Source of the DNA: Escherichia coli
Lineage (GTDB): Bacteria > Pseudomonadota > Gammaproteobacteria > Enterobacterales > Enterobacteriaceae
DNA: 64,000 nucleotides
Assembly: GCF_013122565.1 (NCBI RefSeq)
Contig: NZ_CP053258.1
Direction: 5' to 3' (one strand)
Part shown: positions 10,762 through 13,700 of the stretch, piece by piece
How positions within the stretch are numbered: the stretch's first letter is position 1
How the letters are laid out: every line of letters begins with the position of its first letter
Program-made: the position numbers

Positions 10762-13700
10762 TTATCGTTATCATCTACAAAGACCACCAGCATAACAAAT
10801 CCGTGGTCGGTGGCAAAAAAAGCAGATTTCGCTTATTAAAACTGCATATTGATTGAAGTTTGAATAAACGCGCGATTTTTTAAAAAAGTTTGTTGACCTC
10901 AGGTCATGATTTCCCTAAATTAGCGCCCGTTCCAGCAAGACAGGAACGACAATTTGGTGAGGTGTCCGAGTGGCTGAAGGAGCACGCCTGGAAAGTGTGT
11001 ATACGGCAACGTATCGGGGGTTCGAATCCCCCCCTCACCGCCAGATTACAAGCGCATGTTATTGTTTAACATGCGCTTTTTTATTTATCCTTCCAGACAG
11101 TATGCCACCGGGTATGCCATCTGAAACCGGTTTATATGCCCCACGATCATATCTTATCGGACAATTTCCGATCTTTGAGCATACTGGCAAAGCTATACTG
11201 CCAGCATGTCAGGATAGTGTTTTGCGATAATATCATTCAGTCTGTCAACCAGTTCTGGCTTCCTGAACGTGATGTGCGCAGAGCCCTTCTTAAAGTATTT
11301 AATAATGAACATCTCATCTTCATAGCATTCTTTTCCCTGAAGAGACCGGATGTGATCGTCCAGATGAATAGTTATGTTTTCCCTGTTGTCGGGGATCGGT
11401 TTGCCGCTGAACAGATGCAGCATTCTTTCCAGGTCGGCAAGTCTATCTGCCTGTTGCCCGGTGATAAGATGCAATCCCCACCGGTCCCACCTCACCAGAT
11501 TGTTGACGATAATTTTATTGCCAAATTTACAGGGGCAATTGGTTTTGTAATTCCAGCTCAACCCTCTGAAGAGGTTGATCACTCCTCGCTCAAACACTTC
11601 ATCCTTATTCTGGTGTAGCTGCTCAAACGTACTCAGAATATTCTCTTCACTGATTTCCGGAAAATTATCGTACTCCAGTGATCGGTACCATGTATCACGG
11701 GCCTGTGCATCCATTAAGGAAAGCATCCCGGAGCATTGCATCAGGTCACGCCAGATTTCGCGATCGAGATTGCGGGTGATAGCTTTCATTGCTGTATCAG
11801 GTTTATCCATGAGCCAGCAGCCGCAGCGAAAATCCTGTTTCATGGCCCAGTCCAGTGCGGTTTTACCGCCAATACTTTCTGTCATTGCTGATATTTCAGT
11901 CAGTTGCCGGATAAGTGTGTCGATTTGCAGCAGTGTAGTCTTTCGCACAGCCAGAATGTGGCTGACTGAGGTGGAGCAGATAATGTCCGTATGTCCGTTG
12001 ACCACTTCCAGGCGGGAGATTGTGATATCTGACATCATCGTTTTTCCTTTTGGTTTATAAACGAAAACGCCAGCCCTGTTCAGGCTGACGTCATTGGAAT
12101 GAGACTGACGCCATAACGTCGGATGAGTGTGACAACCAGACGGCGGAACGTTTTTGACAGGCCCAGGCGTTTAAGCCGCAGAACCGGGTATGACCACGCA
12201 TCGGTACGTAACAGATATCCGCTGCCTGTAAAATGAATCCATTCTGATTCGCCGGTGTCATTCGTCTGATGCGACAGCGAGTACAGCCAGGCGTTGTCTT
12301 TTGCCGTGATATGCGCGGTACTGCAGCGTATGCCGGTCAGGGCAGCAAATGGTGGCGTGCAGTCTGTTGAGGCTCGGTCAGATTCATCAACAACACGAAG
12401 GGAGTGACCGTTATCGCAGACCACGTTAATCAGTTCAGCAAGCTCAATACCATCGACGTCAACGACAATGCGCCCCATGTTCAGTGCCTGTACGTTAACG
12501 CTGTCGGCTTCCAGCGTCAGGGCCAGTTTCATCATTTCGCCTGCGGATGCTTACCCAGGGTTATGTTATTTACCGTTCTGTAATTGTCGCGGGTCATCAG
12601 GCCGGTCGCCCTGCGAGCCCGGAGGATATCGATGCTGTTTATTAACTGAGAGCGGGTACAGGCGCTGAATCCCGGCTGGTCGGTACGCACCAGCGCGTAT
12701 TTTTCCACGAGAAAGTTCACCGCAACACACAGTGAAATACCTGCCTCAATATGCTGCTCAATCACACGTTCATCAGCGAACGGTGTGTCATTCAGCGTGA
12801 GGCCGTAGTGCTGGTCCAGCAGACGGCCAAGCAGTATCTGCCAGATGGTGACGGGAGACGGGCAGCGCGATGCCTCCCGTACGTATGTATCGGGTAATGT
12901 TTTCATACTAAAGTTTTTCCTGATATGCAGAGATGAGAAATGGGGAAGTGGCGTGGTGAAAACACCAGGCCGGAGCAGAAGGTTATTCTGATGATTTACT
13001 TTTTCGTTTCGGGCGTCGGATAAACAGCCATATAAACGTAACCTCGACTGCCGAGGGTATCGGCTTTGCAGGTCAGCCCTTTTGCATACAGCGTGACGGT
13101 ATGCTGATGGCGGGGATTCAGCTCACCGCTGGTGAGCATGAGTTCCAGTTGTTTCATCAGTAGCGGAAAGGCCTGGTCCAGATGGTACGCATCCGCGTCG
13201 CTGAACCGGCCTCTGATACCGGCGCGGTCGGCAAGGTAATGCAACCGGTTACTCTCCTGCACCAGACGTGCCCCGAAACAGGGCGTCACGGTGCAGGGCA
13301 GCCCCCACCAGGGGTGGCTGTTGTTGTCATCGGGATGAGTTGTCCCGGAGAGTGTGTCTGACACGATAAAATCCTCACAAATAATCAGTTAAGAATGGTC
13401 CGGTAGCGGCGATAATTCTGTTCATCAGAATGCCAGTCCTGATTCAGTACAGGGTGACGCTCATCAGCCGGACATACGGGCCAAAAACTGTCCTTACGGC
13501 GTTCAGCAAACACGGCCAGCACACCGGGAATATCCTGTACTTCACTACCGGTATACGTCTCAGCACTGCCGTGCCAGCGGTACTTACCGGTGCAGAACGG
13601 AAAAAGACGGGATGCAGGATGCTGTTGGTGAATACGCATGGCTTCACCACGGGTGATAATTTTCATAATGGGATACCTCTGAAGACAGAAGATAAAAGTG

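What the first reader, a model, noticed from the sequence alone, without database searches (positions are those of the whole stretch)
13385..13666. Apparent frameshift in the yeeT-like gene upstream of the CbeA/CbtA module
Seen in sequence: the N-terminal frame matches YeeT-like proteins, but the expected C-terminus …FGPYVRLMSVTL appears in the overlapping frame; the N-terminal frame instead reads through to a stop 21 nt before the antitoxin start, giving a 93-aa variant. The canonical C-terminus is quoted from memory.
Basis: partly seen in the sequence, partly recalled or inferred. Interest (0 to 1): 0.3.

Follow-up and report, generated by a model that had tools for sequence, protein, structure and literature searches.

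The report
Frameshifted yeeT pseudogene beside CbeA/CbtA
A small gene of unknown function (yeeT, family DUF987) that sits upstream of a toxin-antitoxin pair in a decaying E. coli genomic island carries one extra T that breaks its reading frame. It is a real, inherited but ordinary pseudogene, and NCBI's annotation already flags it.

Summary
The minus-strand ORF at 13385-13666 is a DUF987/YeeT gene with one extra T in a T4 run (T5 at window 13483-13487). After residue 61 the reading frame leaves the ancestral tail GPYVRLMSVTL(N/Y) and runs 32 unrelated codons to a TGA 20 nt before the cbeA start, which gives 93 aa instead of 73.

It is not a sequencing error. The same T5 allele is present in all 15 fetched loci that carry the 93-aa form, from 13 independent assemblies, including SPAdes-style contigs. 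The exact 93-aa product is indexed in 97 collection blocks.

It is not an intact variant either. Only 3 of 4,809 matching complete-genome records have it, and PGAP marks all three "frameshifted". Two of the three near-invariant residues of the family (G62, Y64) are lost. So is the last beta-strand of a very confident model (pLDDT 97).

The flanking RadC/JAB, CbeA and CbtA genes are intact. The island carries many other pseudogenes, including its integrase. The function of YeeT remains unknown: no literature, no related solved or viral fold.

Verdict: an ordinary, already annotated pseudogene of low interest.

The parts
13385..13666 (-). yeeT-like DUF987 gene, frameshifted. As it stands it is a 93-aa ORF: 61 ancestral residues plus a 32-residue out-of-frame tail.
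   Evidence: ORF list. Pfam PF06174 124.5 bits, profile positions 1-63 of 65. PHROG 14887 matches only 4-64 of 79, against 4-74 for the intact protein. PGAP marks the identical sequence 'frameshifted'.
13483..13487 (-). The lesion: a T5 homopolymer (A5 on the + strand) where intact alleles have T4. It is a +1 insertion at codons 61/62 (AGT TTT|T GG).
   Evidence: Alignments A1 and A3. Coordinates. T-run length against ORF length in 23 loci.
13447..13482 (-). Remnant of the ancestral C-terminal coding sequence (GPYVRLMSVTLY), now in the +1 frame. It holds the family's GPY motif and encodes the last beta-strand.
   Evidence: Repaired translation. Family alignment A2 shows G62 and Y64 nearly invariant. 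The AF2 model has a strand at 62-72.
13444..13446 (-). Ancestral yeeT stop codon (TGA), now out of frame.
   Evidence: End of the 13444-13650 ORF. Alignment A1.
13385..13387 (-). New stop codon (TGA) of the extended frame, 20 nt upstream of the cbeA start.
13372..13376 (-). GAGGA, a likely Shine-Dalgarno sequence for cbeA. It lies between the new yeeT stop and the cbeA GTG.
   Evidence: Read directly from the sequence. Its function is inferred.
12996..13364 (-). cbeA/yeeU-family antitoxin, intact (122 aa).
   Evidence: Pfam PF06154 177 bits, profile positions 1-100 of 101. It is 122 aa in all T5 loci.
12532..12906 (-). cbtA/yeeV-family toxin, intact (124 aa).
   Evidence: Pfam PF06755 203.6 bits, profile positions 1-112 of 112.
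13729..14220 (-). RadC-like JAB-domain gene (yeeS-like) directly upstream of yeeT, intact.
   Evidence: Pfam PF04002 153.5 bits. PGAP calls it 'JAB domain-containing protein'.

Best explanation
This is a genuine, heritable +1 frameshift, most likely made by replication slippage that lengthened a T4 run to T5. It inactivates one paralogue of yeeT (DUF987).

The gene lies in the conserved block DUF932 - antirestriction - RadC/JAB - YeeT - CbeA - CbtA - DUF5983 - DUF4942. That block belongs to a CP4-44/CP4-57-like genomic island inserted next to tRNA-Ser(GGA) and ghrA.

The mutation replaces the last 12 residues with 32 residues translated from out-of-frame and formerly intergenic DNA. The lost residues carry the family's GPY motif and form the terminal beta-strand. 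The product is therefore expected to misfold or be non-functional.

The allele arose once from a T4 parent of the P0009 type. It has since spread with the island, and it also reached a second, different island through a recombination tract of about 600-700 bp.

Shown: the indel, its inheritance, its rarity, and the loss of conserved sequence and structure. Inferred: slippage as the mutational mechanism, and loss of function of the protein.
For: (1) There is a single-base indel relative to intact alleles. T5 goes with 93 aa and T4 with 73 aa without exception in 23 loci.

(2) The allele is not an error of this assembly. The identical allele is in complete genomes PapRG-06-5, RM14516 and 100181. 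It is also in ten further assemblies, including SPAdes-style contigs with about 270x coverage in the contig name. The exact protein is on 53 contigs and in 97 blocks.

(3) It is rare. Only 3 of 4,809 records matching yeeT have it. The intact counterpart P0009 is in 365 blocks.

(4) In 36 homologues down to 34% identity, the only near-invariant columns are Y29, G62 and Y64. The frameshift starts at G62.

(5) The AF2 model of the intact protein has pLDDT 97.1, with strand 62-72 following strand 49-59.

(6) PGAP labels it 'frameshifted'.

(7) A same-site island in strain A30 has an intact 73-aa gene.

(8) The island is decaying. PGAP lists 16 pseudogene entries in the PapRG-06-5 island, including the integrase, and the window is collinear with it at 99.5%.

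(9) There is a recombination tract. L013, in another island next to gspL/M, differs from the window by 2 bases across about 13100-13700, against roughly 2-30 (mostly 4-8) differences per 100 bp in the flanks.
Against: No expression or protein data exist, so loss of function is inferred, not shown. The first 61 residues still score well above the Pfam threshold. The function of YeeT is unknown, so no phenotype can be predicted. The allele persists in many strains, which is compatible with neutrality but does not exclude a tolerated or useful truncated form.
Confidence: 0.9

Rival explanations
1. Sequencing or assembly error: a homopolymer miscall in this assembly, with the real gene being the intact 73-aa form.
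For: Homopolymer indels are the usual long-read error. One other 'SFW...' form (P0004) sits in an assembly whose neighbouring antirestriction, CbeA and CbtA genes are also broken, which looks like sequencing noise.
Against: The same T5 is present in all 15 fetched loci that carry the 93-aa form, from 13 independent assemblies from different hosts and continents. Some of these are short-read-style SPAdes contigs. A run of five bases is short for such errors. The neighbouring genes in the window are all full length. The T5 allele also carries a linked substitution (AAC to TAC at the old last codon) that is absent from T4 alleles.
Confidence: 0.02
2. The 93-aa form is a functional variant with a new C-terminus, not a pseudogene.
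For: Gene callers other than PGAP report it as an ordinary 93-aa protein (GDH02217.1). It persists on at least 53 contigs and moved into a second island. The Pfam score is still 124.5 bits.
Against: The tail is a translation of out-of-frame and intergenic DNA, and the only full-length matches to it in the protein search belong to its own allele cluster or to other broken-frame forms. It removes G62 and Y64 and the terminal strand. All full-length homologues in alignment A2, down to about 34% identity, keep the ancestral C-terminal segment. An open frame of 30 more codons is expected by chance about one time in four ((61/64)^30, own arithmetic).
Confidence: 0.05
3. Recoding: a +1 ribosomal slip of tRNA-Phe on UUU_U (AGU UUU UGG to AGU UUU|U GGC), or transcriptional slippage on the T5 run, still yields some full-length YeeT. 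A Shine-Dalgarno-like UAAGGA 4 nt upstream might help.
For: The sequence allows it: re-pairing UUU to UUU in the +1 frame gives exactly ...DSFGPYVRLMSVTLY. UAAGGA lies just upstream. The resemblance to the prfB arrangement is from general knowledge.
Against: The arrangement is not conserved. It is confined to one recent allele, and the T4 in-frame gene is the rule. The A-site codon UGG is not a stop or a known hungry codon. T5 is far shorter than the runs of about 9 or more A/T known to cause transcriptional slippage (general knowledge). The UAAGGA is simply the ancestral codons R-K-D. No structured RNA lies downstream (z = +0.6).
Confidence: 0.03

Closest known systems
E. coli K-12 YeeT (CP4-44 prophage; yeeS-yeeT-cbeA-cbtA-yeeW)
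   Same: It has the same family (Pfam DUF987) and the same position between the RadC/JAB gene and the CbeA antitoxin. The DNA is about 92% identical, and the N-terminal 61 residues are nearly identical.
   Different: K-12 yeeT has T4 and encodes 73 aa ending GPYVRLMSVTLN. The window copy has T5 and encodes 93 aa with an unrelated tail. It also lies in a different island, at tRNA-Ser/ghrA rather than CP4-44.
Intact allele P0009 (73 aa, 'MULTISPECIES: DUF987 domain-containing protein [Escherichia]')
   Same: The first 61 residues are identical. The nearest DNA copy (L019) differs in the coding region by two substitutions plus the one-base indel.
   Different: P0009 is in frame and ends ...TLN. 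It is found in 365 collection blocks against 97 for the frameshifted form.
RefSeq pseudogene G3M73_RS05100 (yeeT, 'frameshifted') in E. coli PapRG-06-5, and its equivalents in RM14516 and 100181
   Same: The sequence is identical over the 451 bases searched, with the same chromosomal site and the same neighbours.
   Different: Nothing differs at the gene itself. Unlike PapRG-06-5, the window has a deletion of about 291 bp downstream (shared with strain 100181) and no IS3 in the integrase.

Membership tests
DUF987 / YeeT family (Pfam PF06174) | Sequence match to the family profile above the curated threshold | tested here: met
   124.5 bits against a cut-off of 25, E = 1.5e-36, residues 1-63. 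PHROG 14887 scores 101.4 bits.
DUF987 / YeeT family (Pfam PF06174) | Full-length domain with the conserved C-terminal GPY..LM motif (G62, Y64) in the translated frame | tested here: not met
   Frame 0 reads W62-P-V64. The motif survives only in the +1 frame. The locus is therefore a family member by descent, but a broken one.
DUF987 / YeeT family (Pfam PF06174) | Position between a RadC/JAB gene and a CbeA-family antitoxin gene, on the same strand | tested here: met
   Gene order in the window and in the loci compared, each with RadC/JAB upstream and a CbeA-family gene downstream.
Frameshift pseudogene | An indel, not a multiple of three, relative to intact orthologues, with the ancestral downstream frame still recognisable | tested here: met
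Frameshift pseudogene | The base call is real (reproduced independently) | tested here: met
   T5 is present in 15 fetched loci from 13 other assemblies. The reads of this particular strain could not be inspected.
Frameshift pseudogene | Loss of function of the product | not testable with these tools
   This is inferred from the loss of two of three near-invariant residues and of the terminal strand. No assay for YeeT exists, and the literature searches found nothing.
Programmed ribosomal frameshift | The frameshift arrangement is conserved among homologues | tested here: not met
   Only one allele lineage has it: 3 of 4,809 records. All other homologues are in frame.
Programmed ribosomal frameshift | A stimulatory element (slow A-site codon, or downstream RNA structure) | tested here: not met
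   The A-site codon is UGG. The downstream RNA folds no better than shuffled sequence (z = +0.6). An upstream UAAGGA exists but is ancestral coding sequence.

The most novel reading that the evidence does not exclude
The frameshift may not be neutral for the neighbouring toxin-antitoxin pair. It moves the yeeT stop from about 80 nt to 20 nt upstream of the cbeA start, directly in front of its GAGGA. Ribosomes would then be delivered to the antitoxin's initiation site, and translational coupling could raise CbeA relative to CbtA. Alternatively, low-level +1 slippage on UUU_U could keep some YeeT. Either effect would make this a regulatory allele and not merely a dead gene.
Probability: 0.07. 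Interest if true: 0.3.

Novelty: already known. Interest (0 to 1): 0.08.

Why it matters
It matters little. The result tells annotators that the 93-aa 'hypothetical protein' called by some pipelines (e.g. GDH02217.1) is a frameshifted yeeT, as PGAP already records. It also adds one more lesion to a decaying island that is probably no longer mobile.

Two by-products are mildly useful. First, the DUF987 family has a clear C-terminal GPY motif and a very confident predicted fold with no solved relative. Second, the CbeA/CbtA pair is kept intact where yeeT is broken, so YeeT is evidently not needed to maintain the toxin-antitoxin pair.

Tried and rejected
- **Literature.** Searches for DUF987 and for yeeT plus yeeU gave only incidental mentions and nothing on function.
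- **Sequence libraries.** There were no hits for YeeT in NCBIfam or by PDB sequence search, and none for YeeT or five neighbouring island proteins in PADLOC.
- **Single-sequence AF2 of the 93-aa form.** It gave pLDDT 40. This is uninformative because no alignment was supplied, and I do not use it as evidence of misfolding.
- **RNA fold of the yeeT-cbeA spacer.** It folds no better than shuffles, so there is no support for a regulatory structure.
- **Promoter scan.** There was no minus-strand promoter-like site between yeeT and cbeA. This is weakly consistent with co-transcription and nothing more.
- **A second T5 event in another paralogue (P0004).** It sits in an assembly whose neighbouring genes are also broken, so it is not counted as recurrence.
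- **Long repetitive proteins (P0160, P0238, P0258).** They match residues 11-42 of YeeT many times but carry unrelated Pfam domains. I treated them as compositional matches.

Full report
**What is in the window.** All genes in this part of the window lie on the minus strand. Reading 5' to 3' on that strand they are as follows.

| Window coordinates | Gene / family |
|---|---|
| 15917-15039 | DUF932 |
| 14772-14221 | antirestriction protein |
| 14220-13729 | RadC-like JAB protein |
| 13666-13385 | the ORF in question |
| 13364-12996 | CbeA-family antitoxin |
| 12906-12532 | CbtA-family toxin |
| 12535-12080 | DUF5983 |
| 12038-11193 | DUF4942 |

A tRNA-Ser(GGA) gene follows at 10956-11043 on the + strand. 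This is the well-known conserved block at the end of CP4-44/CP4-57-type islands of E. coli. The closest complete genome is E. coli PapRG-06-5, at 99.7% over 6 kb. There the block lies between ghrA/tRNA-Ser and a disrupted integrase.

**Check of the observation.**
- The 93-aa ORF matches Pfam DUF987 over profile positions 1-63 of 65 (124.5 bits).
- The overlapping ORF at 13444-13650 ends ...VFGPYVRLMSVTLY.
- Aligning the window with K-12 yeeT, the intact allele of strain A41 and three identical or near-identical copies shows one extra T. Intact alleles read CAG-TTTT-GG; the window reads CAGTTTTTGG.
- The run occupies window 13483-13487. Removing one T gives a 73-aa protein ending GPYVRLMSVTLY*.
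- The extended frame stops at TGA 13387-13385. That is 20 nt before the cbeA GTG at 13364, and a GAGGA lies at 13376-13372 between them.

Only the proposed resequencing stretch (13440-13480) just misses the lesion.

**Real mutation or error?** It is real.
- Three complete genomes carry the same 282-bp form: baboon isolate PapRG-06-5 and human isolate 100181, both from The Gambia, and blackbird isolate RM14516 from California.
- The exact 93-aa protein is on 53 contigs and indexed in 97 blocks of the large assembly collection.
- Ten contexts were fetched, including SPAdes-style contigs, and all have T5.
- The window's neighbouring genes are full length.
- By contrast, one other "SFW..." form (P0004) sits in an assembly whose antirestriction, CbeA and CbtA genes are also broken. 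It looks like sequencing noise.

**Intact variant or pseudogene?** It is a pseudogene.
- Of 4,809 complete-genome records with a yeeT-like sequence (about 12,900 places), three have the 282-bp form. PGAP marks each of them "frameshifted".
- A search of 1.84 billion representative proteins found 174 relatives.
- In an alignment of 36 full-length ones, down to 34% identity, all keep the C-terminal segment. The only near-invariant columns are Y29, G62 and Y64. The frameshift begins exactly at G62.
- An AlphaFold2 model of the intact protein is very confident (pLDDT 97.1). It reads helix 6-15, strand 19-30, helix 35-38, strand 49-59, strand 62-72. The mutation therefore removes the terminal strand that follows strand 49-59.
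- The new 32-residue tail is the translation of out-of-frame and formerly intergenic DNA. Thirty further open codons are expected by chance about one time in four (own arithmetic).

**History of the allele.**
- The nearest intact allele (L019, protein P0009) differs in the coding region by two substitutions plus the indel. P0009 is indexed in 365 blocks.
- An island at the same tRNA-Ser/ghrA site in strain A30 has an intact 73-aa gene.
- Nine of ten T5 contexts are at tRNA-Ser/ghrA.
- The tenth (L013) is a different island next to gspL/M. It matches the window almost perfectly only across about 13100-13700, with 2 differences. The flanks differ at roughly 2-30 (mostly 4-8) positions per 100 bp.
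- The broken allele, with most of cbeA, has therefore been copied between paralogous islands by recombination.
- CbeA (122 aa) and CbtA (124-125 aa) are intact in every T5 context.

**Context of decay.** In PapRG-06-5 the island carries 16 PGAP pseudogene entries. These include a helix-turn-helix regulator, several IS remnants and the integrase. The window is collinear with it at 99.5% over 29.8 kb. Its integrase ORF (41160-42251, 363 aa) ends out of frame, next to an IS200-type tnpA. A frameshifted small accessory gene is what one expects in such an element.

**Mechanism.**
- Shown: a one-base expansion of a homopolymer; vertical and recombinational inheritance; loss of conserved sequence and of a structural element.
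- Inferred: replication slippage as the cause, and loss of YeeT function as the result.
- The function of YeeT itself stays unknown. There is no literature, no NCBIfam, PADLOC or PDB sequence match, and no related solved or viral fold.

**Rivals.**
- Sequencing error is excluded for practical purposes by the independent assemblies.
- A functional 93-aa variant is unlikely, given the lost motif and strand and the nature of the tail.
- Recoding is formally possible. A +1 slip of tRNA-Phe on UUU_U would restore the exact ancestral protein, and UAAGGA lies upstream. But the arrangement is not conserved, there is no slow A-site codon, and the downstream RNA is unstructured (z = +0.6).
- A side effect on cbeA translation, through the stop codon now lying 20 nt upstream of its start, cannot be excluded. 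It is the most novel reading left, and I rate it at about 7%.

**Verdict.** The finding is correct and well described, but ordinary. It is a real, inherited +1 frameshift that makes a yeeT pseudogene, already recorded as such in RefSeq. Interest is low.

Noticed in passing
window 12080-12535 and about 12097-12102: Compared with most relatives (L006-L012, PapRG-06-5), the window lacks about 291 bp. The deletion removes the 3' end of the DUF5983 gene (151 aa here against 162-163 aa) and the whole DUF957 gene. Strain 100181 shares the deletion. In PapRG-06-5 the DUF5983 gene is instead a pseudogene with an internal stop.
   Followed up: partly
window 41160-42251 (-) and 42434-43144: The island's tyrosine integrase ORF is 363 aa and ends out of frame (...GFGGKGACPHAEK*), so the C-terminal catalytic part seems lost. 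PGAP calls the PapRG-06-5 copy frameshifted, and an IS3 splits it there. The window instead has an extra stretch of about 710 bp with an IS200/IS605-type tnpA (42542-43051) that PapRG-06-5 lacks.
   Followed up: partly
L013:3000-5600, compared with window 13100-13700: A tract of about 600-700 bp, holding the broken yeeT and most of cbeA, is nearly identical (2 differences) between two otherwise diverged islands at different chromosomal sites (tRNA-Ser/ghrA against gspL/M). This indicates gene conversion between paralogous islands.
   Followed up: partly
[not shown]
   Followed up: partly
P0149 (159 aa), P0001 (145 aa), P0002 (120 aa), from the protein searches: Some database entries contain two DUF987 units in tandem or partial internal duplications of yeeT. 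I did not check whether these are real duplications or assembly artefacts.
   Followed up: no
window 14794-15078 (-), between the DUF932 and antirestriction genes: A small ORF is called as an 81-aa protein with no Pfam hit in most related loci. In strain A30 it is annotated as a second 'antirestriction protein'. I did not examine it.
   Followed up: no
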